A DNA stretch of 64,000 nucleotides from Escherichia phage vB_EcoM_LNA1. Below, in pieces: positions 6,186 through 63,979 of this stretch. Location: sequence record MZ311863.1; one strand, given 5' to 3'. The notes beneath the pieces were generated by a model. The model did not search any database. It was not told the DNA's origin and saw nothing but the letters and a program-made list of their open reading frames with translations. Numbering within the stretch: the stretch's first letter is position 1; the number at the start of each line of letters is the position of its first letter. Made by a program: the position numbers and the translations under genes.

Positions 6186-6453
6186 CATCTGGTCAATACA
6201 CTCGCAAGGTGTACCAGTTCTCTTATGAACTTCTCCGCATTTCTACGGAGTGTCGGACTATATCACGTAGTAGTAATACTACCGTTGCACTTGGGAATGG
6301 TCATTAGCTTACCACCCTACTCTACTCAGTTCATACATTAAGTATGCTTTTCGATAGTCTCTGAACGTTCCTCTCAAGAGGCTTCGCTGCTGATTACCGT
6401 ATCTTCTCAGACTTAGGCTTCCAGCAATTCACAACGTTTTACATGCGCCACTG
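6186..6453 (-). ncRNA. putative ORF-less group I intron in DNA polymerase gene
   Basis: splits motif B (KNGIYA / LLFGAGDEK); 5' exon ends in U, intron ends in G; intron start cagtgGCGCAtg can pair with exon end uGCGU (U.G at splice site); contains GATATAGTCCGAC resembling the Tetrahymena-type P7 core, then hairpin CTCCGTAGAAATGCGGAG (P9-like). Confidence 0.6.
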
Positions 6454-8596
6454 ACGCATAAATGCCATTTTTGGCTTTCTTACGACCTTTTGTAATCTCG
6501 TGAAGAAGTTCCTCGTCCTGTGTCCCCCTACAACGAACAATATCTTCTTCCTTGTTCAGACCAAAGTAAATACTGTTCAGTGTGTGTGCATCAGTACCTG
6601 TGTAGACTTCGTAGAGGTCATTCTCAGCATCATAACGAAGATACTTATCAGTTTCTGGATTGAGGTACTTATCAAGATGCTTGCAATAGTATCTCCCATC
6701 ATCTTGCTTAGTAAATTCTACAAACTCTTTACCTTCAGTTACCGCTTTGGTGAAGTCTTTATCACCCATAAAGTTACACAGTAAAACAAGCTGTGCAGAG
6801 TTCTGGTCAACAGAAACAATGTTAGTACCCTCTTCACAAATCCACACTTCCCTCATAGGTGCTCCATAGACAGCAGCACCAGATGGTACGTTTACAATAC
6901 CATATTGTGTCATACGTCCAGTTGAAGTACCAAATACCATTGCACCAGCACTAAGGCGACCATCGGGACGAATCTGGTTCAACCAACCTTTTTCATCATC
7001 CTTTGAGTTCTCAATAGTTCTGCGTCGGTGCATCAAAGTATAGTACTTAGCAATCTTCTGTCCAAGCTCACCTTCAATCGTATCATAAGATGATTCAGTA
7101 AGCTTTGGTGAAGTACGGATTAAGCAAGGCTCAAGCAAATCTGTGTATTTCTTCACAGACCAGTTATGCTCAATGTACTGTACACCTTCATGTTCAACAT
7201 AGCTCAAACCACACCGCTCAACCATTTCCTGCCACTTAGGATGTTTTGTAATCATCTTTTTATTGTCTTTGAAACGACAAACTTTGACAGGGCGACCATC
7301 TGAGTCTTTCTTGTAGTTCCAGTCATCTGGAATCCAACCAACTGATTTCAAGTAATCTTTAACAACTGCTACCTGAGTCATACGAGAAACTTCGAACTCA
7401 ATTGGTGTATAAGGTGCATCAATCAAACCTGTGTAGCGACTTGACTCAAGCTCAAAGTGATTAACAACATGGCTGTTATAGTACTTCACAGTTTTAACTG
7501 TTTTTACTGGCTTCCAGTCTTTGCATTTCTTACCAATCTTTGCATTCAACTCATTACAAATTGCACGAGCATCCTTCATTGCTACAAAACCTTCCTTGTA
7601 CTCTTCACCAGTTACAGAGTTGGTTGGTGTATAGCAATTTCTCTTTTCAATGTTAAAAATCTTTGTAGTTGGCTTACCAAATGGTTTGATTTCATAAGTC
7701 TGCATCTCACCATTACGTACCTGCTGACGATACTTTGTCTTAGGATACTTGGTAATTCTCTTCAGTCCATCTGCATGACCAAATGTTTCAACATACTCAT
7801 TCCAAGCTTTTGCAAACTCTTCTCCAGTGACTTTACCTTTAGTCTTAATAGTTGGAGGAAGATGTGGTTCAACTTCTGAAGCAAGCTCATTAGTCAACTT
7901 GTCAAGTTCCTTTACATGGAACTCCATAAGCTCTTTATCAGCTTTCCAACCATTGATAGCCTGTTGACTCATCCAGAAAGATGTTTCTTTAGCTCGCATG
8001 TAGGTTTCATAAGTATCTACGCCACACTTCTTTAGCTTGAGATATTCATTATCCAGTGCGCGTTTAGTTTTGGCGTTAATACGGATATCTTCCACAACAC
8101 GAGTGAAGATTTCTGCATTCCACACACCCCAATGTTCAATCTCTGGTTTACGTACACCAACACGAGCACCCCATGCAGCCAAGCCATGAGCACCTTTATA
8201 ACCTTTTGGAGTTGGTCTATCCATCCACTGAACACGGGACTGGATAAGAGAATCCTGAAAGAAATTACTCCACGGTTTACACTTTGGATTATCAAAGTTC
8301 CATAAATCCGGTGCAATGTGATTGAAAACCCACCAGTCATAACCGAGACCGTTATGGATACAAAGACGTTTTGCCTTTAACGCAAACTCAACACCTTCAC
8401 GTAAGCCACCCTTAATGTACTTAGTGTACTTGTGACCGAGGATAGGCTCATCTGTAAAGACCCATACAGGTGGCTCTTCATCGTCAGATTTATAGTCTGC
8501 AAAGGCCATTACGTGAACTTTAGTGAACTCAAGGAGTAAACCATCAGTTTCTGTATCACCAACCAAATGTAAGTTTTTAAAATCTACGTTTTCCAT
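6454..8596 (-). CDS. DNA polymerase (family A) exon 1: 3'-5' exonuclease domain through first half of motif B
   Basis: VGDTETDGL exo motif near N-terminus; VSVDQNSAQL motif A-like; ends ...RKKAKNGIYA before in-frame stop in intron. Confidence 0.75.
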
Positions 8597-52874: not shown

Positions 52875-53339
52875 TTACTTTGGATATACACTGTCAAGAT
52901 AAATGTTAGCTTCCATTCTACGTCTGTTTTTCAGTCCGTTTGAAGTAACCTTCTCACCTTTGACTGTAATCTTGTTCCACCACTGCATAGCTTCTGCACA
53001 ACCTACCTTATTACCAGCATTGTGGCGCTTGATAAATGTAGAGTCCTGCATAGCTGTGATACCGATGTTGTATGTTTCACTTACAAGTGCGTCGAACTCA
53101 TTCTGAGAAGTGGGAACCTTGATAGCTTTGTTCACTGCTGTAACAAACTTTTCAACATCTGCGAGAAGATACTGTTCAGCTTGTTCAGCCGTGATTTTCA
53201 TACCCATCTTAACAGGTTTTCCGTCAATACGGATTGTACCATACCCGATTGTTGGGATTCCGGCAGAATCTTTGTAAGCCTCTAACTTCAGACCTTCAAA
53301 GAACTTAATGGCTTCTAAGCCTTTTCTTGAGAGTTGCAT
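52875..53339 (-). CDS. endolysin, GH24 lysozyme family
   Basis: 154 aa; EGLKLEAYKDSAGIPTIGYG matches lambda R / P22 gp19 lysozyme catalytic region. Confidence 0.7.
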   Translation of the reverse strand: MQLSRKGLEAIKFFEGLKLEAYKDSAGIPTIGYGTIRIDGKPVKMGMKITAEQAEQYLLADVEKFVTAVNKAIKVPTSQNEFDALVSETYNIGITAMQDSTFIKRHNAGNKVGCAEAMQWWNKITVKGEKVTSNGLKNRRRMEANIYLDSVYPK

Positions 53340-54724
53340 TATGCCCCTCCTGCTGGGTTAACTGTAACCGTTGCCGCATTAGATGTTACAGAGCCACCTG
53401 CACCAGTTACAACGCAAGTGTAGCTTCCTGCATCAGCAGCGGTTGCACCTTCTTTGGTGTAAGTTGCAGTAGTTGCGTCTGGGATGTTTTCCTCACCCTT
53501 CTTCCACTGATAGCCTGTTGCACCTGTTGCCACAACATTCAGCGTTAAGGTCTCACCTTCAGTGATTTCTTGATTGGTTGGCTGTTGAGTGATTACAGGA
53601 AGAGCATTCACAGTAACTGTCGCTGCATTAGAAGTGACTGTTGTACCACCTGCACCAGTAACTACACAGGTATATGAACCAGCATCAGCAGGGGCTGCTT
53701 TAGCTTTCGTGTAAGTTGCACCAGTTGCGCTAGGGATGTTCACATTGTCTTTCTTCCATTGGTAACCTGTTGCACCTGTAGCCTCAACGCTCAGCGTCAA
53801 GCTACTACCTTCATTGACTGCTTGGCTGGTTGGCTGCTTGGTAATCACTGGTAGAGCGTTTACTACAACAGTCGCAGGGCTAGAAGTAACAGAACCACCT
53901 GCACCCGTTACAACGCAAGTGTATGAACCTGCATCTGCTGGCAGTGCGCCAGACTTGCTATAAGTAGCTTCTGTAGCTGAAGGGATGTCAGAGCCATCTT
54001 TCTTCCATTGGTAACCTGTTGCACCTGTTGCAGCCACTTCCAAGTTGATATTCCCACCCTCATTGATGGTCTGGCTAGAAGGTTGCTGTGTAATCACAGG
54101 TAGTGCATTAACAGTAACTGTTGCCGCGTCTGAAGTAACACTTGTCCCAGCCTCTCCAGATACAACACAAGTATATGAACCAGCATCGGCAGGTACTACA
54201 GATTGTTTTGTATAAGTTGCAGAAGTGGCACTGGAGATATCCTCACCACCCTTCTTCCATTGATATCCAGTGGCGTTAGTTGCAAGAACGCTTAGGGTAA
54301 GTGTGCCACCCTCATTAACTGTTTGGTTTGTTGGTTGCTGAGTAATTGCTGGTGGCTTAATAGCATCCTTCAGCTTAGCATTCAACATTGAGAACGGCTT
54401 AACTCTTGCCAACCATTCACAATACACTGTATCAACGTCTTTACCATTGATAATTGCATATTGTAAATCCATGAAGAAGTCAGAAGTTCTCATTTGAGCA
54501 CCGACGCTGTAAAGCAAATCATCACTAAAAGGAACTTTATAGTCTGGTTTGTAGTCAAACTTCTCAACTTCTGCGATATCAGCTTCAGGCCAATATGAGC
54601 TATAGGTTAGTGGTAAAATAGCCTCTTGATATGTTCTAAAATCATATCTCTTACCAGCCTTTACGTTTGCAATGAAGCCCTTCACAAACTCTTTGAAGTC
54701 TGGGTAAGTCTTTGCTTTAATCAT
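53339..54724 (-). CDS. protein with four tandem Ig-like repeats
   Basis: 461 aa; about 170-aa N-terminal domain then four ~95-aa repeats each containing ATGYQWKK...ADAGSYTCVV (Ig/I-set-like); underlying DNA 53357-54347 is tandemly repeated. Confidence 0.5.
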   Translation of the reverse strand: MIKAKTYPDFKEFVKGFIANVKAGKRYDFRTYQEAILPLTYSSYWPEADIAEVEKFDYKPDYKVPFSDDLLYSVGAQMRTSDFFMDLQYAIINGKDVDTVYCEWLARVKPFSMLNAKLKDAIKPPAITQQPTNQTVNEGGTLTLSVLATNATGYQWKKGGEDISSATSATYTKQSVVPADAGSYTCVVSGEAGTSVTSDAATVTVNALPVITQQPSSQTINEGGNINLEVAATGATGYQWKKDGSDIPSATEATYSKSGALPADAGSYTCVVTGAGGSVTSSPATVVVNALPVITKQPTSQAVNEGSSLTLSVEATGATGYQWKKDNVNIPSATGATYTKAKAAPADAGSYTCVVTGAGGTTVTSNAATVTVNALPVITQQPTNQEITEGETLTLNVVATGATGYQWKKGEENIPDATTATYTKEGATAADAGSYTCVVTGAGGSVTSNAATVTVNPAGGA

Positions 54725-56350: not shown

Positions 56351-56722
56351 ATGAAAAACAGAACAAACAAAGGCCAGTTTAAAAAAGGCCAATCTGGAAA
56401 CCCATCTGGAAGACCAAAAGGCTCTCGTAACAAAAGCTCACTTGTAAAAGCTCAACTGACCATTGATAATTCTGCTGAGTTTGCTGCAAAGCTGTTTGAG
56501 GCAATTGTTACAAGGGATGCTGCTAAGCTTGCAGAGTTCGGGTTAAACACAGATGACGTAACCATCAAGAGTATGATTGAGGTCGGTAAAACCATCTTTA
56601 CTCACTCAGCAGGTGAGATGAAAGCACTTGCAGCAGACACTAAGAAAACCCCTGATAATGGTGGTCAGCCACAGACAGATAACAAACCAACGTTCTCTGC
56701 TGTAGCGACTCTCAAAAAATAA
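56351..56722 (+). CDS. hypothetical protein with GNPSGRPKG motif (DUF5681-like)
   Basis: 123 aa; N-terminal KGQFKKGQSGNPSGRPKGSRN, a motif I recall from a phage/plasmid DUF family. Confidence 0.35.
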   Translation: MKNRTNKGQFKKGQSGNPSGRPKGSRNKSSLVKAQLTIDNSAEFAAKLFEAIVTRDAAKLAEFGLNTDDVTIKSMIEVGKTIFTHSAGEMKALAADTKKTPDNGGQPQTDNKPTFSAVATLKK

Positions 56723-56803
56723 TTTTAAAAGGTGTTGACAGACTCTGCAAAGTTGTTCTAAAGTCTGTCACATCAAACAACAAATGAGAGAAGAGAGTAA
56801 AAT

Positions 56804-58219
56804 ATGAGCGAATTATTCAAACATGCGCACCTTCATGCAGGTCGAACTGAAAATGGTGCTGTAAACCATACTTCATCAATGTCTGCTCTTGTGGACTTTT
56901 ACAAAGCTGCTGGTTCAAGCCGTAGCAATGTAGAAATCTTACCAGACTTGTTCTACAAAGCTTTGCGTGAGGATGTTGATGTTGCAGTTCGTATTTTGCT
57001 TCACATGCGAGATGTACGAGAAGGTATGGGTGAGCGTAAAGCCTTCAGAACTGTTTTACTTAAAGCAATCGAAGATAAAGTTTTAGAGCCTACACAGGTT
57101 CTTCGTATTATGGATAAGATTGCAGAACTTGGTCGTTTTGATGACTTCAAAATCTTTGTAGGTACTCGTTTCGAAACAGATGCCTTCAAGCATTTAGAAG
57201 CAGCATTACTAGACCCTGCAACAGCAGGTTTGGCAGCCAAGTGGTTACCACGAGTCAAACCACGTCATAAGCAGTTTGTAAAACGTTTCTGCAAGTTTGC
57301 CAACTTGAGTGAGAAAGAGTACCGCACACTGTTGTCTGCACTGTCTGATACAGTTGAGCAAAAAATCTCTGCTAATGAGTTTGGTAAGATTGACTACAGT
57401 AAGATTCCTTCACTTGCTGCTGCACGTTACCAAAAACTCTTTAACCGTAAAGATGGGGAACGTTACAAAGCTTACATCGAGTCCCTCTCAAAAGGTGAGG
57501 CTAAGATTAATGCTGGTGCTGTTTACCCATACGATGTGATTAAATCTATCAAGTATGGTAATGCAGATGTTGCTAATGAGCAGTGGAAAGCACTACCAAA
57601 CTGGATGGCAGAAGGTGAAAACATCCTGTGTATGACTGATGTTTCAAGCTCAATGTCTTGGGTGAATCTTGGCTCAATTACTGCCCTTGATATTGGTGTA
57701 TCACTTGCCTTGTATGTAGCAGAACGCAATACAGGTTGCTTCAAGGATGAGTTAATGGTTTATTCAACAAACCCTCACTTCATCGAACTGAGTGGTGATT
57801 TACGAAACCGTCATCGTCAGGTGATGCGACATGTTGAATATGGCTCAACTAACTTACAAGCAGCTTTTGACCGCATTCTTGAGGTAGGTAAGAGAAACAA
57901 CTTGACTCAGAAAGATATGCCAAGTAAGCTTATCATCTTCTCTGATATGGAGTTCAATCAGGTTGATGGTGCAAATGGTCGTACAAACTTTGAAGCAATT
58001 CAGAGTAAGTACAAAAAAGCTGGATACGAAATGCCACAACTAGTATTCTGGTACTTAGCAAACCGTAATGGTACTTGCGAAGTGTCTGTTAAGGATAATG
58101 GTGTAGCAATGGTATCGGGGTTCTCTCCAGCCACTTTAAAAGCTCTGCTTGGTGGTGAGAAGTTTGACCCAATCAGCGTAATGCTTAAAGCAGTAATGAT
58201 TGACCGTTATATCTGGTAA
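56804..58219 (+). CDS. vWA (MIDAS) domain protein, possibly TROVE/Ro-like
   Basis: 471 aa; C-terminal half has MIDAS motif DVSSSMS and downstream IIFSDMEFN; N-terminal helical domain unassigned. Confidence 0.45.
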   Translation: MSELFKHAHLHAGRTENGAVNHTSSMSALVDFYKAAGSSRSNVEILPDLFYKALREDVDVAVRILLHMRDVREGMGERKAFRTVLLKAIEDKVLEPTQVLRIMDKIAELGRFDDFKIFVGTRFETDAFKHLEAALLDPATAGLAAKWLPRVKPRHKQFVKRFCKFANLSEKEYRTLLSALSDTVEQKISANEFGKIDYSKIPSLAAARYQKLFNRKDGERYKAYIESLSKGEAKINAGAVYPYDVIKSIKYGNADVANEQWKALPNWMAEGENILCMTDVSSSMSWVNLGSITALDIGVSLALYVAERNTGCFKDELMVYSTNPHFIELSGDLRNRHRQVMRHVEYGSTNLQAAFDRILEVGKRNNLTQKDMPSKLIIFSDMEFNQVDGANGRTNFEAIQSKYKKAGYEMPQLVFWYLANRNGTCEVSVKDNGVAMVSGFSPATLKALLGGEKFDPISVMLKAVMIDRYIW

Positions 58220-58238
58220 AAAGTTTTAAAAAAGGGTA

Positions 58239-58267
58239 TTGACAATGTGTTTAATACCCTTTAATAT
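58239..58267 (+). promoter_or_regulatory. sigma70-like promoter
   Basis: TTGACA-17 nt-TAATAT; a second weaker TTGACA element at 58330. Confidence 0.45.
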
Positions 58268-58385
58268 GTTCTACATAGAGACGAAATGAGAGCTTTTCTA
58301 AGATACTGAAAAATATTTTAAAAAAGTTCTTGACAATCACTAAAAAATAATGTTAAAGTGGTTACATAGAGTTTGAAAAGTTTAT

Positions 58386-58462
58386 CTCTGTTTAGCTCAG
58401 CTTGGTAGAGCGTTCCGTTTGGGGCGGTAAGGCCGGAGGTTCAAGTCCTCCAACAGAGACCA
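58386..58462 (+). tRNA. tRNA-Pro (UGG)
   Basis: manual fold: acceptor ctctgtt/aacagag (C1-G72), D-arm gctcagcttggtagagc, anticodon loop tttgggg, T-arm ggagg-ttcaagt-cctcc, CCA encoded. Confidence 0.65.
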
Positions 58463-58469
58463 AATTAAT

Positions 58470-58547
58470 GTTCCAGTAGACAAAATGGTATAGTCACCAC
58501 TCTTTCAAAGTGGATATTTGAGGGTTCAAATCCCTTCTGGAACGCCA
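58470..58547 (+). tRNA. tRNA-Glu (UUC)
   Basis: acceptor gttccag/ctggaac, anticodon arm ccact-ctttcaa-agtgg, T-loop ttcaaat. Confidence 0.6.
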
Positions 58548-58552
58548 GTTTT

Positions 58553-58630
58553 GACAGAAGACCAATTACAGCAAACTTAATCTTATTCATCTGAAGGTAA
58601 ATCGGACAAAGAAGAGATTTGGTCTGGTCA
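58553..58630 (+). repeat. inter-tRNA repeated element (copy a)
   Basis: gACAGAAGACCaaTTACAGCAA ... tttGGTCTGGtca; same 5' and 3' motifs recur in 3 further units. Confidence 0.5.
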
Positions 58631-58638
58631 TTAAGAAT

Positions 58639-58715
58639 TGCGGGTATAGAGAAAGGGCGTCTCACATGTCTCATTAGCATGGTATCGGCAGGTTCGACTC
58701 CTGCACCCGCCTCCA
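58639..58715 (+). tRNA. tRNA with CAU anticodon (Met or Ile2-type)
   Basis: D-arm gaga-aagggcg-tctc, anticodon arm catgt-ctcatta-gcatg, T-arm gcagg-ttcgact-cctgc; acceptor pairing imperfect, exact ends uncertain. Confidence 0.5.
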
Positions 58716-58720
58716 AATTT

Positions 58721-58790
58721 TACAGAAGACCGTTTACAGCAATATTTATTAAATTTTTAGCGGAAAAATTGAAAGATACGGTCTGGTAAT
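58721..58790 (+). repeat. inter-tRNA repeated element (copy b)
   Basis: tACAGAAGACCgtTTACAGCAA ... acGGTCTGGtaat. Confidence 0.5.
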
Positions 58791-58799
58791 ACTAAATAT

Positions 58800-58876
58800 G
58801 GTTAGGAAGCACATAAGGTATGTGCGGTCGCCTGTTAAGCGAATGGCACAGGGTTCGAATCCCTGACTAACCGCCA
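58800..58876 (+). tRNA. tRNA-Asn (GUU)
   Basis: anticodon loop ctgttaa, T-arm caggg-ttcgaat-ccctg, acceptor ggttagg/actaacc, CCA encoded. Confidence 0.65.
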
Positions 58877-58885
58877 AATTTAAAT

Positions 58886-58973
58886 GTGTCGTTATCCCGT
58901 AGATGGTAGCGGTGGGGACTGTAAATCCCTTGTCATTGAGACTCGGTAGGTTCGACTCCTACACGGCACACCA
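58886..58973 (+). tRNA. tRNA-Tyr (GUA), long variable arm
   Basis: 88 nt; anticodon arm gggga-ctgtaaa-tccct, T-arm gtagg-ttcgact-cctac, acceptor gtgtcgt/acggcac. Confidence 0.6.
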
Positions 58974-58994
58974 ATTTTGATAGGGCTACTTAGC

Positions 58995-59030
58995 CCCTCC
59001 CTTAAAGGGTTCTTACGAGTATCCTTTAAA
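58995..59030 (+). repeat. palindromic element AAGGGTTCTTACGAG..TCCTT (copy 1)
   Basis: cccttaaagggttcttacgagtatcctttaaagg; second copy at 62443. Confidence 0.5.
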
Positions 59031-59032
59031 GG

Positions 59033-59112
59033 AGCAGAAGACCAAATACAGCAAGTTACTTAAAATTTCAAGCCAATTTAATTTTGAAAAATTTAAAACT
59101 TGGTCTGGCTCA
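59033..59112 (+). repeat. inter-tRNA repeated element (copy c)
   Basis: gagCAGAAGACCaaaTACAGCAA ... ttGGTCTGGctc. Confidence 0.5.
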
Positions 59113-59120
59113 ACAAATTT

Positions 59121-59258
59121 ACAGAAGACCGTTTACAGCAAAACTTAAACAATCTATTTCTCGGTAAAGAAAAGGCGAAGATTCGACTCCTTCACTCGGC
59201 AGATGTCGAGTTGGTGTAATGGTAGCACTTAAGATGATAAACAACGGTCTGGTAATTA
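59121..59258 (+). repeat. inter-tRNA repeated element (copy d) containing tRNA-like fragments
   Basis: ACAGAAGACCgtTTACAGCAA ... T-arm-like gaagattcgactcctt and hairpin actcggcagatgtcgagt ... acGGTCTGGtaat. Confidence 0.45.
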
Positions 59259-59401
59259 CCTTTGTAGGTGAGCTATTAAGCTTACCTGTGAGTATGCGAC
59301 CACAAAGGGTGAAAGGGTAAATTCTAGATTTAAACCCAAAAAGGCACATCACTACAGACCTTAAGCAAGTCTGGGTAGCTTATCTACAAAGATAATTTAA
59401 T

Positions 59402-59477
59402 GGAAGTGTAGCAGAATGGTGATGCGGCAGACTTTTAATCTGACAGGCGATGGGTTCGATTCCCTCCACTTCTACCA
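59402..59477 (+). tRNA. tRNA-Lys (UUU)
   Basis: anticodon loop cttttaa, acceptor ggaagtg/cacttct, T-loop ttcgatt, CCA encoded. Confidence 0.6.
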
Positions 59478-59481
59478 ATAT

Positions 59482-59558
59482 GGTTCAGTCGCAGATAAGG
59501 TAATGCAAGGGTCTCATAAACCCTATGAATGTGGGTTCGATTCCCATCTGAACATCCA
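59482..59558 (+). tRNA. initiator tRNA-fMet (CAU)
   Basis: anticodon arm agGGt-ctcataa-aCCct with three consecutive G-C pairs, and 1-72 mismatch (G.A): both are bacterial initiator hallmarks. Confidence 0.6.
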
Positions 59559-59560
59559 AT

Positions 59561-59636
59561 GCTGTGAAAGCACATATGGATGTGCATTCGGCTGATAACC
59601 GAAAGGCAGAAGGTTCGAATCCTTCTCACAGTACCA
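59561..59636 (+). tRNA. tRNA-Ile (GAU)
   Basis: anticodon arm ttcgg-ctgataa-ccgaa, T-arm gaagg-ttcgaat-ccttc, D-arm gcac/gtgc. Confidence 0.65.
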
Positions 59637-59651
59637 ATTTCAATAAAGTTG

Positions 59652-59680
59652 TTGACATTGAGATGTGACTACTTTATACT
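59652..59680 (+). promoter_or_regulatory. strong sigma70-consensus promoter
   Basis: TTGACA-17 nt-TATACT; followed by about 200 nt with no ORF before next tRNA. Confidence 0.55.
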
Positions 59681-59884
59681 AACCTTAGTTTTCGTTGCGT
59701 AGCGTCTATTTTGCAAATTTAAAATAAATGCAAACGACAATGTTTTTCTGGCAGTAGCTTAATAGGCTAAACACCAGTGAGGTCTTCCAATCCCTCATCA
59801 AAGAATTTGGCGTACTCGCCCACGGTATGGTTAATAAGGTGGGCATCTTTAAGGGCTTTCTAAGAGAGTCTTTAAAGATAATTA

Positions 59885-59966
59885 CGGGGCGTATCTCAGC
59901 TGTCTTCTAAACAGCCGTTAACCGAGTAAGTGGAGTATGCGGGTTCGAGTCCTGCCGCCTCGACCA
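59885..59966 (+). tRNA. atypical tRNA-like gene (possible Arg UCU-type hairpin)
   Basis: good 7-bp acceptor cggggcg/cgcctcg and T-arm gcggg-ttcgagt-cctgc with CCA, but internal arms non-canonical; hairpin gctgt-cttctaa-acagc looks like an anticodon arm. Confidence 0.35.
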
Positions 59967-60115
59967 ATTTAGTTAGCAGATTACTTAGACGACCTAAGCG
60001 GGTCTTCCTGTAGGGAGGTGGTCTGTATCTCATGTTTTCCAGAACATGTAAATAATCTGAGAAGGGGCTTTACAGTGTTGAGATAATACGGTAAGCTTCG
60101 AATTATAGTTTTAAT

Positions 60116-60186
60116 AGGGGTGAGCTATGGCAGCAATAGAGTCTCCAAAATTCTTGATTAGAGTTCGAATCTCTCCACCCCTGCCA
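60116..60186 (+). tRNA. tRNA-Trp (CCA)
   Basis: starts aggggtg, anticodon loop ctccaaa, ends caccccctgcca; closely parallels E. coli tRNA-Trp ends. Confidence 0.7.
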
Positions 60187-60200
60187 GAACAGGTGCTTGT

Positions 60201-60605
60201 ATGAAACTTTGTAGAAAATGTTCTCAAGAAAAGCCTTTAAGCTGCTTTCATAAAAGGGGTAATGGCTATCAGTCTGCTTGCAAAGATTGTAAAGCTAAGT
60301 ACTCAGCAAAGAGATACAAAGAAGACCCTACTTATAAAGCAAAAAGAAAAGTTAGGGCAAAATATGACAAAAAGAGGAACAGAGAGTTCCTTAGTAGATA
60401 TAAAAAGTTTTGCAAATGCAGGATGTGTGGCGAATCTGAGCCAGTAGCTTTGGATTTTCATCACTTAGACCCTAAAGAGAAAGATTTTGCTCCAAGCAAT
60501 CTTAAAACTTACTCTAGAGGCACTATTAAGCGTGAAGTCCGTAAGTGTGTTGTGCTTTGTTCAAACTGTCATAGGAAAGTTCATGCAGGACTGTTAAGTA
60601 TTTAA
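60201..60605 (+). CDS. HNH endonuclease inside tRNA cluster
   Basis: 134 aa; Zn-ribbon CRKC...CKDC and DFHHLDP...CSNCHRKVH HNH motif. Confidence 0.6.
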   Translation: MKLCRKCSQEKPLSCFHKRGNGYQSACKDCKAKYSAKRYKEDPTYKAKRKVRAKYDKKRNREFLSRYKKFCKCRMCGESEPVALDFHHLDPKEKDFAPSNLKTYSRGTIKREVRKCVVLCSNCHRKVHAGLLSI

Positions 60606-60618
60606 CAGTCTTATTAGG

Positions 60619-60706
60619 GGTAGGTAGCGGCTAATGGTAGCCAAACTGTCTTGAAAACAGTTGCCACTGTAGAGATACGGTGAGGGTTCGACTCCTTTAC
60701 TTACCG
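60619..60706 (+). tRNA. tRNA-Ser (UGA), long variable arm
   Basis: 88 nt; anticodon arm actgt-cttgaaa-acagt; long variable arm; T-loop ttcgact; CCA not encoded. Confidence 0.6.
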
Positions 60707-60962
60707 CCTAATAAGATTTTAAAGCCAAGCTTCATTCGGATGTCGCTTTGGTATCCCTCGTGTTGTCTAACACATTGATAAAACACCTAGTAGGTGTCAC
60801 GGAGAAGAGATAATATCAAGCTCTCCAAAGGTTCTAGTCGCCGGATTAAACAAGACTATGCAAAGACCTTTTTAGGTCTTTTTAGAGGGCTTCTAAGGTT
60901 ATTACAGCTTGTTGTGGAACCTTGTTGCTTAGGTTCTTAGAAGTTCTCTAAAAAGATTTAAT

Positions 60963-61040
60963 GGGAGATTGATGGTAATTGGTAAACCTATCTCGCTTAG
61001 AACGAGATGTTTGAGGGTTCGAATCCCTTGTCTCCTACCA
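60963..61040 (+). tRNA. tRNA with UAG anticodon (Leu-type) but short variable arm
   Basis: anticodon arm tctcg-cttagaa-cgaga; T-arm gaggg-ttcgaat-ccctt; discriminator A; class I length. Confidence 0.5.
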
Positions 61041-61047
61041 AATTAAT

Positions 61048-61123
61048 GCAGGTGTAGCAAAATGGTTATGCGGCTGACTCTTAATCAGTAAGACGATGGG
61101 TTCGAATCCCTCCACCTGTACCA
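61048..61123 (+). tRNA. tRNA-Lys (CUU)
   Basis: paralogue of 59402 tRNA; anticodon loop ctcttaa. Confidence 0.55.
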
Positions 61124-61129
61124 AACATT

Positions 61130-61205
61130 GGGGATGTAGTTTACATGGTTAAAACATAAGTTTTGCAAACTTAAGTACAGGGTTCAATTCCCTGCTTCTC
61201 CACCA
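61130..61205 (+). tRNA. tRNA-Ala (UGC)
   Basis: G3.U70 wobble in acceptor (Ala identity element), anticodon loop ttttgcaa, ends ctccacca. Confidence 0.7.
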
Positions 61206-61211
61206 ATTAGT

Positions 61212-61286
61212 GCATCCATAGTTTAAACGGGAAAATTACAGTCTTCCAAACTGAGGTTGAGGGTTCGATTCCCTCTGGATGCTCCA
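61212..61286 (+). tRNA. tRNA-Gly (UCC)
   Basis: acceptor gcatcca/tggatgc, anticodon loop cttccaa, discriminator U. Confidence 0.65.
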
Positions 61287-61292
61287 AATAAT

Positions 61293-61369
61293 GCTGCTTT
61301 CGTATAATTGGCTATTACACATCCCTTGTAAGGATGGAAATGCAGGTTCGAGTCCTGTGAGCAGCACCA
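61293..61369 (+). tRNA. tRNA-Thr (UGU)
   Basis: anticodon arm catcc-cttgtaa-ggatg, T-arm gcagg-ttcgagt-cctgt. Confidence 0.65.
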
Positions 61370-61371
61370 AT

Positions 61372-61462
61372 TCAGAGGTCAAGTGAAAGACCGCTGGTGT
61401 CAACTGAAGACCGTAACAAATTCCACGGAGTTGAGTTAGCGGCACAACTTCAGACCTCTTTC
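61372..61462 (+). ncRNA. candidate structured non-tRNA element
   Basis: terminal inverted repeat cagaggtc...gacctct; contains ctGAAGACCGTaACAaA related to the inter-tRNA repeat motif. Confidence 0.3.
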
Positions 61463-61464
61463 AT

Positions 61465-61539
61465 ACTCGCTTAGTTTATATGGTAAAATATCACCCTTAC
61501 AAGATGAAGAAAAAGGTTCAAGTCCTTTAGTGAGTACCA
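61465..61539 (+). tRNA. tRNA-Val (UAC)
   Basis: anticodon loop cttacaa, T-arm aaagg-ttcaagt-ccttt, acceptor actcgct/agtgagt. Confidence 0.55.
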
Positions 61540-61540
61540 T

Positions 61541-61618
61541 GTTCCAGTATCCCAATTGGCAGAGGATGCAAGCTCAAACCTTGTATTAGTGACGGTTCGA
61601 ATCCGTCTTGGAACACCA
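61541..61618 (+). tRNA. tRNA with CAA anticodon (Leu-type) but short variable arm
   Basis: anticodon arm gcaag-ctcaaac-cttgt; acceptor gttccag/ttggaac shared with the Glu tRNA at 58470; discriminator A. Confidence 0.45.
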
Positions 61619-61637
61619 ATTTTAAGAGGCTATTTAG

Positions 61638-62195
61638 ATGAGATATTTGAAGTATGCTTCATGGATTTTCCTAGCTTTACTAGAACCATTTGCAGCAGCC
61701 CTAGCAGTCATCTTAGCACCTTTCGTAGTTCCATTCTACAGTGAGAAGAAAGGGCATCTACCTTTTGGATTCAGATGGATGGAGACCTATGACAACCCGA
61801 TTGATGGTGATGAAGGCCACGTTAAAAGATGGGCTAAGATTAGAAAGATTGGTAAGCTGGGTGTCTACATGCAGAGAGTTGGATGGCTCTGGAGAAACAA
61901 AGCTTATAACTTCTCTTACCATGTATTAGGAAGAGATGTAAAAGGTGTGACTAAGTGGAAAGGTAATATCAACGTAAGTTCTGACCCTGAAGATAATCAG
62001 ACAGGTTATCTCCTAATGTGGAACAGTAATGCTTGGGGATTATTCGCTTTTATCCCATCAATTAAAGTCTTTGGTAAGCAGTTTTACTGGAGAATTTATG
62101 TTGGATGGAAACTAAAAAGCGTTGTCCCAGAAGAGAGAGCATTCTCAAGGGAAAGAGTTATGTTGGCATTCTTTATTCATCCACTGAGAAAGTAA
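61638..62195 (+). CDS. hypothetical membrane protein
   Basis: 185 aa; N-terminal hydrophobic helix WIFLALLEPFAAALAVILAPFVVPF; embedded in tRNA cluster. Confidence 0.4.
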   Translation: MRYLKYASWIFLALLEPFAAALAVILAPFVVPFYSEKKGHLPFGFRWMETYDNPIDGDEGHVKRWAKIRKIGKLGVYMQRVGWLWRNKAYNFSYHVLGRDVKGVTKWKGNINVSSDPEDNQTGYLLMWNSNAWGLFAFIPSIKVFGKQFYWRIYVGWKLKSVVPEERAFSRERVMLAFFIHPLRK

Positions 62196-62203
62196 AGATT
62201 TAA

Positions 62204-62279
62204 AGGGGATTAGTTTACAAGGTTAAAACCTCGGTCTTTGAAATCGAAGAAGTTGGTTCAATTCCAACATCCCCCGCCA
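62204..62279 (+). tRNA. tRNA-Gln (UUG)
   Basis: anticodon arm tcggt-ctttgaa-atcga, T-arm gttgg-ttcaatt-ccaac. Confidence 0.55.
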
Positions 62280-62281
62280 AT

Positions 62282-62360
62282 GCTCCATTACTCCAATTGG
62301 CAGAGAGGCCAGACTTAAAATCTGTGTTATGTATCGGTTCGAATCCGATATGGAGTACCA
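62282..62360 (+). tRNA. tRNA with UAA anticodon (Leu-type) but short variable arm
   Basis: anticodon loop cttaaaa, T-arm atcgg-ttcgaat-ccgat, discriminator A. Confidence 0.45.
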
Positions 62361-62365
62361 ATTTT

Positions 62366-62441
62366 AGCGGTATAGCATAACTGGCAATGCAGCAGTCTCT
62401 GAAGCTGTCCTATTAAGGTTCAAATCCTTATGCCGCTGCCA
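62366..62441 (+). tRNA. tRNA-Gln (CUG)
   Basis: anticodon arm gcagt-ctctgaa-gctgt, T-arm taagg-ttcaaat-cctta. Confidence 0.55.
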
Positions 62442-62442
62442 C

Positions 62443-62470
62443 TTCTAAGGGTTCTTACGAGAGTCCTTAA
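62443..62470 (+). repeat. palindromic element AAGGGTTCTTACGAG..TCCTT (copy 2)
   Basis: cttctaagggttcttacgagagtccttaaatg. Confidence 0.5.
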
Positions 62471-62471
62471 A

Positions 62472-62547
62472 TGTGGCCTTATCATAAATGGTAATGACCC
62501 ATGCTGTGAACATGGTCTATACGGGTTCAAATCCCGTAGGTCACCCC
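62472..62547 (+). tRNA. tRNA-His (GUG)
   Basis: anticodon arm ccatg-ctgtgaa-catgg, discriminator C, T-arm acggg-ttcaaat-cccgt; no encoded G-1 seen. Confidence 0.6.
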
Positions 62548-62552
62548 AATTT

Positions 62553-62629
62553 ATAGTCCAAGTAGCTTATATGGTTAAAGCGCGTGTCTGAAAAACATGA
62601 GAAGAGGGTTCAAATCCCACTGGACTACC
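62553..62629 (+). tRNA. tRNA-Phe (GAA)
   Basis: anticodon arm cgtgt-ctgaaaa-acatg, acceptor tagtcca/tggacta; 3' end assignment uncertain. Confidence 0.55.
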
Positions 62630-62646
62630 AATTTCAAAGGTGCTTA

Positions 62647-63381
62647 ATGAAAGAGATGACAGAACAAGGTAAGGAGATTTTTAATCTCTTAAAAACCGGT
62701 AAAGGGTTTTCTAACCCGCTTATTACTGGTGCAGCAGTTCTCGGTGGAACCGTAGCTGCCTCTACATCACTTGTAAGCTCTATTAGCTCTGTAACAGACC
62801 CTACAATAAAAGATAAGCTTGTTGCTGCTGGGCTTACAACAGTCCTTCTAAACAGCTTTACAACAAGCCTTACAAGCACTACAGCAACTACTAAGACCCT
62901 AACAGACTACGGTCAAAAGTCTATTGATGAGTTTTCATCACGTATGCAGGTAGCAAAGGGATACTCCAATGTTATGGGTGCAGCAGGGGAACAAGTTGGT
63001 TGTACACCATTCAGTGGTATTATGGGTGTTGCTACAGAGTATGGTCAAAAAGCTATTGGCATGATGAACAGTACACTAGATAGTGTTAATGGTGTGTTAA
63101 GTGACTTGCAAGACGCTATTGATGAGGGTCTTGATACTGTTTCTGATTTAGCTAATCAAGCTGTTAGTAAAATTAATGAAGGCATTTCAAAGATTACAGC
63201 TTATGCAGATGAAGTTGTGCAGATGATTGAAGAAGAAGCTGCCCTTATTGCAGAGTACCTTAAAACGAATATTAATGGGTTCTTAGCAGGTATCTTACCA
63301 GACTGGTTTGATGATGCCTGTAAAACTGGTGTAATTGACACTATTGCAACACCAGAAATGAAGAGCGCATTACAGAAATAA
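62647..63381 (+). CDS. hypothetical Ser/Thr-rich protein
   Basis: start moved to internal Met (MKEMTEQG) because the 5' part of the ORF overlaps tRNA-Phe. Confidence 0.4.
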   Translation: MKEMTEQGKEIFNLLKTGKGFSNPLITGAAVLGGTVAASTSLVSSISSVTDPTIKDKLVAAGLTTVLLNSFTTSLTSTTATTKTLTDYGQKSIDEFSSRMQVAKGYSNVMGAAGEQVGCTPFSGIMGVATEYGQKAIGMMNSTLDSVNGVLSDLQDAIDEGLDTVSDLANQAVSKINEGISKITAYADEVVQMIEEEAALIAEYLKTNINGFLAGILPDWFDDACKTGVIDTIATPEMKSALQK

Positions 63382-63382
63382 T

Positions 63383-63475
63383 GGAAGATTAACCCTAAAA
63401 GGTAAGGGAGCAGTTTGCTAAACTGCCAGTAGCTGAGAAATCGGTGTACCAGTTCAAGTCTGGTATCTTCCTCCA
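63383..63475 (+). tRNA. tRNA-Ser (GCU), long variable arm
   Basis: 93 nt; anticodon arm gcagt-ttgctaa-actgc, 21-nt variable arm, T-arm accag-ttcaagt-ctggt. Confidence 0.65.
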
Positions 63476-63480
63476 ATTTT

Positions 63481-63556
63481 GAATCCGTGACAGAAATGGA
63501 TATGTGCCTGTCTGCAAAACAGGTTTATAAGGGTTCAAGCCCCTTCGGATTCTCCA
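63481..63556 (+). tRNA. tRNA-Cys (GCA)
   Basis: anticodon arm cctgt-ctgcaaa-acagg, discriminator U, acceptor gaatccg/cggattc. Confidence 0.65.
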
Positions 63557-63778
63557 AGTTATTTTACTCTCTCTCAATTAAAATAATAATAATGCCCTGC
63601 TATAAGTATTCTTCCTTTCGCTACCGAAGAGTATTTTTAGACAGGGCTTTTTTACAGAGTTATACTTTATAAGAAGCCTTATACAGTATGTCTCTGACGT
63701 ACATTGTGGTTTCTCCTTGACGGTCTCTGTGCCGTCTTTTTTAAGGGGAAACAAGATTAATTATTTGGAGAAAACATA

Positions 63779-63979
63779 ATGAGCGAGAACGTTTATAAAG
63801 AACTTTATGAAGCTAACAAGAAGTTAGAGTTTATGCAGAATACTATCATGGCAATTGCAGATAGATTATCTGTAGCAACAGGTATTGATATTAAAGAAGC
63901 ATCTATGGATGCACTTCTTGATGCTGTTGATGCAAAGTTCGAAGTTAAGAAAGAAGAGACTGCTACAGACTCTGAATAA
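63779..63979 (+). CDS. small hypothetical acidic protein
   Basis: 66-aa ORF. Confidence 0.3.
   Translation: MSENVYKELYEANKKLEFMQNTIMAIADRLSVATGIDIKEASMDALLDAVDAKFEVKKEETATDSE

What the first reader, a model, noticed from the sequence alone, without database searches (positions are those of the whole stretch)
56351..58219. vWA/MIDAS protein, possibly TROVE/Ro-like, immediately upstream of the tRNA and structured-RNA cluster
The 471-aa protein has a clear MIDAS motif (DVSSSMS) in its C-terminal half and an unassigned helical N-terminal domain, the same domain order as Ro60/Rsr (TROVE plus vWA). Bacterial and phage Ro60 orthologues are typically encoded next to tRNA-like Y RNAs. Here the gene is followed by a tRNA cluster that also contains repeated non-tRNA elements with conserved stem-forming ends. 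A small protein with a GNPSGRPKG motif lies upstream. If confirmed, this would be a phage Ro-like RNP module.
Basis: inference. Interest (0 to 1): 0.6.

Follow-up and report, generated by a model that had tools for sequence, protein, structure and literature searches.

The report
Phage Ro60-like protein with partner RNAs
A Felix O1-type phage encodes a ring-shaped RNA-binding protein of the Ro60 kind, followed by four small structured RNAs whose conserved module recurs beside this gene family in hundreds of phages and prophages, which points to an undescribed protein-RNA partnership.

Summary

It is 98% identical to Bas63 gp130. A 2024 preprint already called gp130 Ro60-like, showed it counters the Ppl defence, and guessed that its Y RNAs hide among the tRNAs. 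So the protein idea is not new.

The RNA side appears to be new. The four non-tRNA repeats (58552-58630, 58720-58789, 59032-59111, 59119-59255) share one fixed module:
- a 7-bp terminal helix
- one spacer nucleotide
- single-stranded UACAGCAA
- a variable insert
- the 3' strand, then G

Element 4 carries a permuted tRNA-like domain, as YrlA does.

The module lies on the gene strand beside DUF2828 genes in 171 of 235 distant loci. That is 362 elements, against 21 on the opposite strand. Some copies sit in the gene's own 5' UTR.

No Rfam Y RNA model matches. The only Rfam resemblance is sub-threshold, to Dictyostelium Class I RNA, which shares the core.

Verdict: a Ro60-type RNP with a new RNA partner class. 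Binding is inferred, not shown.

The parts
56351..56722 (+). Small DUF5681 protein (123 aa, GNPSGRPKG motif). It is a neighbour, not a conserved part of the module.
   Evidence: Pfam DUF5681 E 2e-14; PHROG 4114. tblastn finds it upstream of the DUF2828 gene only in Felixounavirus loci and L007.
56735..56764 (+). Sigma-70-like promoter in front of the Ro60-like gene (TTGACA-18-TAAAGT).
   Evidence: Consensus scan, 10 of 12 matches. This is a pattern match only.
56804..58219 (+). Ro60-like protein, 471 aa: N-terminal alpha-helical DUF2828 domain (about aa 1-265) plus C-terminal vWA (DUF7788, about aa 270-471).
57638..57658 (+). MIDAS motif DVSSSMS (aa 279-285). It is completed by T349 and D381.
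   Evidence: D279, S281, S283, T349 and D381 are invariant in the 53-sequence alignment A1.
58239..58359 (+). Two sigma-70-like promoters (58239-58267 and 58330-58359) ahead of the tRNA and small-RNA cluster. A hairpin at 58231-58262 overlaps the first.
   Evidence: Consensus scan, 10 of 12 matches each. Pattern match only.
58552..58630 (+). Element 1: short Y-like RNA (outer stem, AGA/G internal loop, helix AGACCAA/UUGGUCU, UACAGCAA at 58567-58574). It starts 5 nt after tRNA-Glu.
   Evidence: Repeat families D5/D9; fold; pattern scan; coordinates; Rfam RF01414 19.7 bits.
58720..58789 (+). Element 2: short Y-like RNA (helix AGACCGU/ACGGUCU, UACAGCAA at 58735-58742). It starts 5 nt after tRNA-Met.
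   Evidence: Covariance model R1, built without this copy, scores it 34.1 bits, E 7e-5. Fold. RF01414 20.1 bits.
59032..59111 (+). Element 3: short Y-like RNA (helix AGACCAA/UUGGUCU, UACAGCAA at 59047-59054).
59119..59255 (+). Element 4: long Y-like RNA with a permuted tRNA-like domain. T arm 59177-59193; 7-bp acceptor-like stem closed by a tetraloop 59194-59211; D arm 59214-59228. UACAGCAA at 59134-59141.
   Evidence: Fold and sequence; coordinates. Canonical T arms occur in the same element class in at least 12 other loci. RNAalifold recovers the terminal helix and the T arm with covariation.
59352..59378 (+). Mini-hairpin CUACAGACCUUAAGCAAGUCUGGGUAG. It resembles a collapsed copy of the module; its status is uncertain.
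   Evidence: Read from the sequence. Not supported by the model or by comparative data.

Best explanation
The gene encodes a Ro60-type ring protein: a HEAT-like helical ring closed by a vWA/MIDAS domain. It belongs to the DUF2828/DUF7788 family.

Its cognate ligands are the small RNAs encoded just downstream. These are probably cut out of the tRNA-cluster transcript by the enzymes that release the flanking tRNAs.

The protein most likely recognises a fixed module in these RNAs: a 7-bp terminal helix (first pair A-U, usually then G-C), one spacer nucleotide, the single-stranded octamer U-W-C-M-G-C-A-A, and an unpaired G after the 3' strand.

The variable insert is an AU-rich loop in elements 1-3 and a permuted tRNA mimic in element 4. 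By analogy with Ro60/Y RNA/PNPase complexes, it would act as an effector arm that recruits or decoys host tRNA- or RNA-handling enzymes. That would benefit phage RNA metabolism and counter-defence.

In other phages, a minimal copy in the gene's own leader, abutting the Shine-Dalgarno sequence, suggests translational autoregulation.

Shown here: the fold, the RNA module, its covariation, and its genomic linkage. Shown elsewhere: Bas63 gp130 counters Ppl. Inferred: direct binding, processing, and the effector role.
For: Protein:
- The Foldseek PDB top 10 are all Ro60.
- The MIDAS is invariant.
- The Ro60-specific vWA Pfam family is hit by 8 of 53 homologues.

RNA module:
- Four copies in the window share the same fold.
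- Strict pattern: 89 elements in 49 of 75 distant viral loci on the gene strand, none on the other strand, 0-2 in shuffles.
- General pattern, same strand versus opposite: 100 vs 9 (viral loci), 149 vs 8 (bacterial genomes and MAGs), 113 vs 4 (independent set).
- All 62 covariance-model hits are on the gene strand, including motif variants absent from the seed.
- The helix covaries, with 4 Watson-Crick pair types at four positions. An unsupervised RNAalifold run recovers it.
- Reverse test: 11-14 of 16 full elements found by a DNA pattern lie next to a DUF2828 gene, against 1 of 64 partial matches.
- The link holds in loci that have no tRNAs.
- 5'-UTR copies abut the Shine-Dalgarno sequence in more than 10 loci.
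- tRNA-like inserts occur in at least 12 loci.

Precedent:
- Bacterial and phage Ro60 genes are encoded within 4 kb of tRNA-like YrlA RNAs on the same strand (PMC4201824).
- Phage phiLo Ro60 binds adjacent Yrl RNAs and host PNPase (PMC12135203).
- gp130 counters Ppl (PMC11482910).
Against: - There is no binding or expression data for these RNAs.
- Rfam Y_RNA and YrlA models do not match. The canonical GNCGAA(N)G or GGUCCGA Ro-binding motif is absent from the 5' strands.
- Pfam TROVE is not detectable by sequence in any of 53 homologues.
- gp130 alone, on a plasmid or inserted in T7, restores growth on Ppl hosts. The phage RNAs are therefore not needed for that phenotype.
- About a quarter of loci show no element. 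Some of those loci are truncated, and some may carry variants.
- Single-sequence folding z-scores are modest, -1 to -2.
- The covariation table was computed on elements pre-selected for at least 7 pairs.
- This phage's own gene leader lacks the module.
Confidence: 0.7

Rival explanations
1. The protein is Ro60-like, but the UACAGCAA stems are only cis-acting signals. They would be autoregulatory operators and leader/trailer duplexes that guide or gate processing of the tRNA-cluster transcript. They would not be stable trans-acting partner RNAs.
For: - Minimal copies lie in the gene's 5' UTR next to the Shine-Dalgarno sequence.
- In L039 and L040 the helix brackets an entire tRNA.
- In the window the elements directly abut tRNA 3' ends.
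Against: - Many elements lie downstream of the gene, in tandem sets of 2-6, in genomes without tRNAs.
- They carry elaborate conserved inserts such as closed-acceptor tRNA mimics, which an operator would not need.
Confidence: 0.15
2. The protein works alone as a protein-level inhibitor of a host defence (Ppl), through its vWA/MIDAS face. The neighbouring RNAs serve another purpose and co-localise only because both sit in the phage's RNA-gene region.
For: gp130 alone rescues T7 and Bas63 deleted for gene 130 on Ppl hosts. vWA/MIDAS domains are classic protein-protein interaction modules (established knowledge).
Against: - Linkage is strand-specific, immediate, and holds across 33-48% identical homologues in unrelated genomes, with or without tRNA clusters.
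- Elements occur in the gene's own leader.
- The fold is that of an RNA-binding ring.
Confidence: 0.08
3. The protein is an ordinary vWA protein of the chelatase or TerY type.
For: Sequence-level Pfam hits outside the DUF families are generic vWA families (VWA_2, VWA_CoxE) in some homologues.
Confidence: 0.02

Closest known systems
Ro60/Rsr with Y RNAs (Xenopus Ro60-Y3; D. radiodurans Rsr-Yrn1; Salmonella and Mycobacterium Rsr-YrlA/YrlB; Thermus phage phiLo Ro60-Yrl1/2)
   Same: - Ring of helical repeats closed by a vWA/MIDAS domain.
- The gene sits next to several small RNAs on the same strand.
- The RNA ends pair into a stem with an internal loop.
- At least one RNA per genome carries a tRNA-like domain with a T arm, a closed acceptor-like stem and a D arm (PMC4201824).
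   Different: - No detectable TROVE sequence signature.
- The protein is about 60-70 residues shorter than Ro60.
- The RNAs do not match Rfam Y_RNA or YrlA, and they lack the GNCGAA/GGUCCGA motif.
- The conserved element is instead a single-stranded UWCMGCAA next to a 7-bp helix.
- Some copies are embedded in the mRNA leader.
Bas63 (Escherichia phage JohannRWettstein) gp130, PhageMaP preprint PMC11482910
   Same: It is the orthologue: 98% identical, with the same position upstream of the tRNA cluster. It is reported as structurally Ro60-like and as a counter to the Ppl defence. The authors hypothesise Y RNAs among the tRNA genes.
   Different: That work did not identify the RNAs. The candidates found here are not annotated tRNAs but the inter-tRNA repeats. 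In the Bas63 record, two of them lie under small minus-strand CDS that are probably spurious.
Dictyostelium Class I RNAs (Rfam RF01414; Kjellin et al. 2021, PMC7919456)
   Same: - About 60 nt long, with a short stem joining the 5' and 3' ends.
- A conserved motif, CCUUACAGCAA, lies directly 3' of the 5' strand; the last 8 nt are identical to the phage motif.
- The interior is variable and G-poor.
- The 3' strand ends in C followed by UG.
- C6, C9, A10 and A11, which are near-invariant in Dictyostelia, are also invariant in the phage RNAs.
   Different: - Phage elements score only 13-29 bits, against a gathering score of 41.5.
- Dictyostelium RNAs have one more spacer nucleotide and start at G.
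- They are eukaryotic genes with a DUSE promoter.
- Their known direct binder is the RRM protein Rnp1A/CIBP.
- Whether Dictyostelia encode a DUF2828 protein could not be tested here.
Pfam DUF2828 (PF11443) + DUF7788 (PF25043); PHROG 850
   Same: Clear member: E 3e-29 and 2e-43; PHROG E 6e-184.
   Different: The family has no described function or RNA ligand in the literature searched.

Membership tests
Pfam DUF2828/DUF7788 (PHROG 850) | Score above the curated cut-off for both domain models | tested here: met
   102.6 bits (cut-off 29) and 148.9 bits (cut-off 27.1). PHROG 850 613 bits.
Ro60/TROVE proteins | N-terminal ring of alpha-helical (HEAT-like) repeats, the TROVE fold | tested here: met
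Ro60/TROVE proteins | Sequence match to Pfam TROVE (PF05731) | tested here: not met
   No TROVE hit at E<=1 for the protein or for any of 53 homologues. A profile search of PDB sequences gives only E 1.8 to phage phiLo Ro60, at the MIDAS region.
Ro60/TROVE proteins | C-terminal vWA domain with a complete MIDAS | tested here: met
Ro60/TROVE proteins | Binds Y RNA on the outer ring surface and single-stranded RNA ends in the central hole | not testable with these tools
   This needs EMSA, CLIP or a structure.
Y RNA / YrlA (Rfam RF00019, RF02553) | Match to the covariance model | tested here: not met
   No Y_RNA hit. The only YrlA hit is 17.3 bits, E 8, over tRNA-His/Phe. Nothing matched in 59100-59275.
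Y RNA / YrlA (Rfam RF00019, RF02553) | Ro-binding motif GNCGAAN0-1G (bacteria) or GGUCCGA (metazoa) in the 5' strand of the terminal stem | tested here: not met
   The only match is GGCGAAG, inside the T stem of element 4.
Y RNA / YrlA (Rfam RF00019, RF02553) | 5' and 3' ends pair into a long stem with an internal loop or bulge | tested here: met
   All four elements show it in predicted minimum-free-energy folds. The inner helix covaries across loci.
Y RNA / YrlA (Rfam RF00019, RF02553) | tRNA-like domain (T arm, acceptor-like stem-loop, D arm) in at least one RNA per genome | tested here: met
   Element 4 has a T arm at 59177-59193, a closed 7-bp acceptor at 59194-59211 and a D arm at 59214-59228. 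The G53-C61 equivalent is A.C. Modification and RNase P cleavage were not tested.
Y RNA / YrlA (Rfam RF00019, RF02553) | Encoded within about 4 kb of the Ro60 gene, on the same strand | tested here: met
   The elements lie 333-1036 nt downstream of the stop codon, on the same strand. The criterion is from PMC4201824.
Dictyostelium Class I RNA (RF01414) | Score at or above the gathering score (41.5 bits) | tested here: not met
   13-20 bits in the window and up to 28.9 bits in L013.
Dictyostelium Class I RNA (RF01414) | Short terminal stem, conserved 11-nt motif CCUUACAGCAA adjacent to the 5' strand, 3' end ...CUG(U) | tested here: inconclusive
   UACAGCAA and CUG are shared, and some phage copies have the full CCUUACAGCAA (L010, L013, L016). 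The register differs by one nucleotide. The promoter and organism context do not apply.

The most novel reading that the evidence does not exclude
The phage UWCMGCAA-stem RNAs and the Dictyostelium Class I RNAs may be one ancient RNA class. They would be the cognate ligands of DUF2828/DUF7788 Ro60-like proteins, a family found in phages, prophages, giant viruses of protists and eukaryotes. Class I RNAs are abundant and developmentally regulated, have no known mechanism, and are thought to be unique to dictyostelids.

This would give Class I RNAs a Ro60-type protein partner. DDB_G0281243, the uncharacterised protein pulled down with DdR-21, is a candidate worth checking. It would also define a second, parallel 'Ro/Y' system.

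Hints in favour:
- The same octamer sits in the same structural position, with the same 3' CUG.
- A giant-virus MAG carries a perfect element next to a tRNA and a ubiquitin gene.
- Fold hits show DUF2828 proteins in Pithovirus, Marseillevirus, CroV and Bodo saltans virus.
- An Arabidopsis outgroup candidate scored 40 bits in the Class I study, and plants have DUF2828 genes.
Probability: 0.3. Interest if true: 0.9.

Novelty: new variant of a known kind. Interest (0 to 1): 0.74.

Why it matters
- It would give a large protein family of unknown function a concrete, testable RNA ligand with a defined recognition module. The family has 8,949 50%-identity clusters.
- It supplies the missing 'Y RNAs' for Bas63 gp130, a phage counter-defence protein already shown to be transferable between phages.
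- It adds an RNA family that Rfam does not hold. Its members are currently unannotated or, in the Bas63 record, overlapped by small CDS that are probably spurious.
- It shows that Ro60-type RNPs with tRNA-mimic RNAs are much more common in phages than TROVE annotation suggests.
- If the Dictyostelium link holds, it makes the long-open question of what Class I RNAs do directly testable.

Tried and rejected
- **Rfam, whole window at gathering thresholds, and 58200-63900 and 59100-59275 at E<=10.** No Y_RNA or YrlA match; only tRNAs and sub-threshold RF01414.
- **Sequence searches of the PDB, single sequence and profile.** Nothing significant.
- **NCBIfam.** Nothing.
- **AFDB fold libraries.** Not available.
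- **DUF5681 as a conserved partner.** Rejected; it is lineage-specific.
- **MAFFT alignments of whole elements (A2, A3).** They misaligned some 3' strands, so I used fixed-register trimmed sequences instead (A4).
- **Model R1.** It cannot bridge long inserts, so long elements were found with a scripted pattern and strand and shuffle controls.
- **Literature search for the octamer.** It returned only primer noise.
- **Searches for DUF2828 and its synonyms.** No functional literature.
- **Older Dictyostelium papers.** Avesson 2011 and Aspegren 2004 are not held.
- **Identity of DDB_G0281243.** I could not learn what it is.
- **Second homologue search, from a 551-aa family member.** It stayed within phage and bacterial sequences and did not reach eukaryotes.
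- **AT-rich back-translated pattern aimed at giant-virus genes.** It returned only phage contigs, which I reused as an independent replicate.
- **The hairpin over the gene's promoter (56733-56770) and the mini-hairpin at 59352-59378.** They resemble the module only loosely and are not claimed.
Full report
**What is there.**
The window is a Felixounavirus genome segment (97% identity to Escherichia phage adrianh and many relatives). The finding spans two ORFs.
- 56351-56722 encodes a 123-aa DUF5681 protein with the GNPSGRPKG motif.
- 56804-58219 encodes the 471-aa protein of interest.

Twenty-four tRNA genes follow on the same strand from 58386. Sigma-70-like promoters lie before the gene and before the tRNA cluster.

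**The protein.**
Pfam assigns DUF2828 (N-terminal half) and DUF7788 (C-terminal half). PHROG 850 labels the family 'RNA-binding protein'.

A 53-sequence alignment down to 40% identity shows an invariant, complete MIDAS: D279, S281, S283, T349, D381. It also shows many invariant basic and aromatic residues in the N-terminal half.

Sequence methods do not see TROVE.
- There is no PF05731 hit in any of the 53 homologues. Eight of them touch the Ro60-specific vWA family.
- PDB sequence searches are empty.

The AlphaFold model is confident (pLDDT 89.6, pTM 0.89), and it settles the fold question.
- The Foldseek top ten are all Ro60.
- Among viral models, the closest are DUF2828/DUF7788 proteins of phages and giant viruses, followed by annotated TROVE/Ro-like phage proteins.

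**Already known.**
Bas63 gp130 is 98% identical and sits in the same place. The PhageMaP preprint (PMC11482910) reported its structural similarity to Ro60. It showed that gp130 counters the Ppl defence and that it can be moved to T7. It speculated that some of the neighbouring tRNA genes are Y RNAs. The Ro-like reading of the protein is thus confirmed but not new.

**The RNAs in the window.**
Four repeats lie between tRNAs: 58552-58630, 58720-58789, 59032-59111 and 59119-59255. All four fold alike: a 4-bp outer stem, an AGA/G internal loop, and a 7-8-bp inner helix.

The inner helix covaries between copies (AA/UU versus GU/AC). So does the outer stem (UGAC/GUCA, UUAC/GUAA, GAGC/GCUC).

Directly after the 5' strand comes UACAGCAA.

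Element 4 contains, in this order, a T arm (UUCGACU loop), a 7-bp acceptor-like stem closed by a tetraloop, and a D arm. This is the permuted tRNA topology described for YrlA (PMC4201824).

Rfam Y_RNA and YrlA models do not match, and the GNCGAA motif is absent.

**Comparative test.**
In 75 viral loci whose DUF2828 proteins are 39-48% identical, the octamer clusters beside the gene on its strand. The module has a fixed register:
- (A)A, then a 7-bp helix that usually starts A-U, G-C
- one spacer nucleotide
- U-W-C-M-G-C-A-A
- a 10-230-nt insert
- the 3' strand, then G

Counts by pattern:

| Set | Same strand | Opposite strand |
|---|---|---|
| Strict pattern, 75 viral loci | 89 elements in 49 loci | 0 (0-2 in shuffles) |
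| General pattern, 75 viral loci | 100 elements in 53 loci | 9 |
| General pattern, 80 bacterial genome/MAG loci | 149 elements in 61 loci | 8 |
| General pattern, 80 independent loci picked only by a DNA pattern encoding RDxRxGxGER | 113 elements in 57 loci | 4 |

Further support:
- A covariance model built from trimmed phage elements returns 62 hits, all on the gene strand. They include the variants UUCAGCAA, UUCCGCAA and UACCGCAA, which were not in the seed.
- Helix positions 3, 4, 6 and 7 each show four Watson-Crick pair types (the rows were pre-selected for pairing). An unsupervised RNAalifold run on ten long elements recovers the same helix, and a T arm, with covariation.
- In the Clostridia-associated clade, ACAGCAA occurs upstream on the gene strand in 35 of 40 loci, against 1 of 40 on the other strand. 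A T-loop occurs in 30 of 40.
- In reverse, a 14-base DNA pattern found 16 full elements, of which 11-14 lie next to a DUF2828 gene. Only 1 of 64 partial matches does.
- The link does not depend on tRNA clusters.
- Minimal copies sit in the gene's own leader, with the 3' strand abutting the Shine-Dalgarno sequence. This is the classic signature of autoregulation by an RNA-binding protein.
- tRNA-like inserts, either permuted or as whole tRNAs bracketed by the helix, occur in at least 12 loci.

**Interpretation.**
The best reading is a Ro60-type RNP whose RNA partners form a distinct, undescribed class. Functionally they are Y-like: a terminal stem with an internal loop, a tRNA mimic, and linkage to the gene. 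They do not qualify as Y RNA/YrlA family members by sequence or by model.

By analogy, the insert would be an effector or decoy arm for host RNA enzymes. Rsr/Y RNA/PNPase complexes and the phiLo Ro60-Yrl-PNPase complex are the precedents (PMC12135203).

Caveats:
- Binding is not shown.
- gp130 alone suffices against Ppl.
- About a quarter of loci lack a detectable element.

**An unexpected resemblance.**
The only Rfam family that touches these elements is Dictyostelium Class I RNA. It does so repeatedly and in register, though always below threshold at 13-29 bits.

Class I RNAs have the same architecture, with one extra spacer nucleotide: a terminal stem, CCUUACAGCAA after the 5' strand, a variable G-poor interior, and a 3' CUG.

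The family is considered unique to dictyostelids, and its mechanism is unknown. One DdR-21-associated protein, DDB_G0281243, is uncharacterised.

DUF2828 proteins occur in giant viruses of protists and in plants. A giant-virus MAG carries a perfect element.

I could not test whether Dictyostelia encode a DUF2828 protein. This therefore stays a hypothesis.

**Verdict.**
- The protein part is already published.
- The RNA partner class, its defining module and its breadth appear to be new.

Noticed in passing
window 6233-6516 (-): Group I catalytic intron (Rfam RF00028, 61.5 bits). It may correspond to the split nrdD gene with a homing endonuclease annotated in Bas63; I did not map it onto the window.
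   Followed up: no
window 60201-60605 (+): An HNH-type endonuclease ORF (134 aa, paired CxxC motifs) is inserted between tRNA-Trp and tRNA-Ser in the tRNA cluster.
   Followed up: no
window 59885-59963 (+): A tRNA-like sequence is called by Rfam (31.2 bits) but not by ARAGORN. Relatives annotate a tRNA-Arg(TCT) at this position. Its 3' end, GGGTTCGAGTCCTGCCGCCTCGACCA, looks tmRNA-like, and a weak tmRNA hit (17 bits, E 7e-4) lies just upstream at 59694-59883.
   Followed up: partly
window 58974-59030 and 62447-62471: This phage lacks the tRNA-Asp that VpaE1 and Bas63 carry right after tRNA-Tyr. Two hairpins occupy the site instead, and one of them is repeated at 62447-62471 with 88% identity.
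   Followed up: no
L082 37749-38023 (Bas63 record MZ501086): Two small minus-strand 'hypothetical protein' CDS (bas63_0137 and bas63_0138) lie in the tRNA-Asp to tRNA-Lys gap, where elements 3 and 4 sit in the window. They are probably spurious calls over RNA genes.
   Followed up: partly
L020 8605-9054; L025 1257-1707; L030 10822-11176: Phage-encoded tmRNA genes lie within a few kb of DUF2828 genes in three unrelated viral contigs (Rfam 75 bits in L020; ARAGORN in L025 and L030).
   Followed up: no
L097 264-337: A giant-virus MAG contig (GVMAG-M-3300023174-1, GC 28%) carries a perfect element, AGGUUCCgUACAGCAA...GGAACCUG. A tRNA and then a ubiquitin gene follow it immediately. The held stretch is too short to show whether a DUF2828 gene is nearby.
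   Followed up: partly
L133 3550-4300 and L151: An AT-rich intergenic cluster holds three or four UACAGCAA elements interleaved with tRNAs, with no DUF2828 gene in the 5-11 kb held. The gene may lie elsewhere in that genome.
   Followed up: partly
L039 4734-4834; L040 4758-4854: Here the conserved helix plus motif brackets a complete, ARAGORN-callable tRNA (tRNA-Thr and tRNA-Asn) rather than a permuted mimic. It looks like a leader-trailer duplex around a tRNA.
   Followed up: partly
PMC7919456, Supplemental Table S4: The Class I RNA study lists an Arabidopsis outgroup candidate with a 40-bit model score (UGUUUUCAUUACAGCAA...GAAAACUG). The authors dismissed it. Plants are the main eukaryotic home of DUF2828 genes.
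   Followed up: no
window 53339-54724 (-): A 461-aa protein has four tandem Ig-like repeats (QQPT.Q.V.EG..L.L.V.ATGATGYQWKK...). Bas63 annotates it as an immunoglobulin-like domain protein.
   Followed up: no
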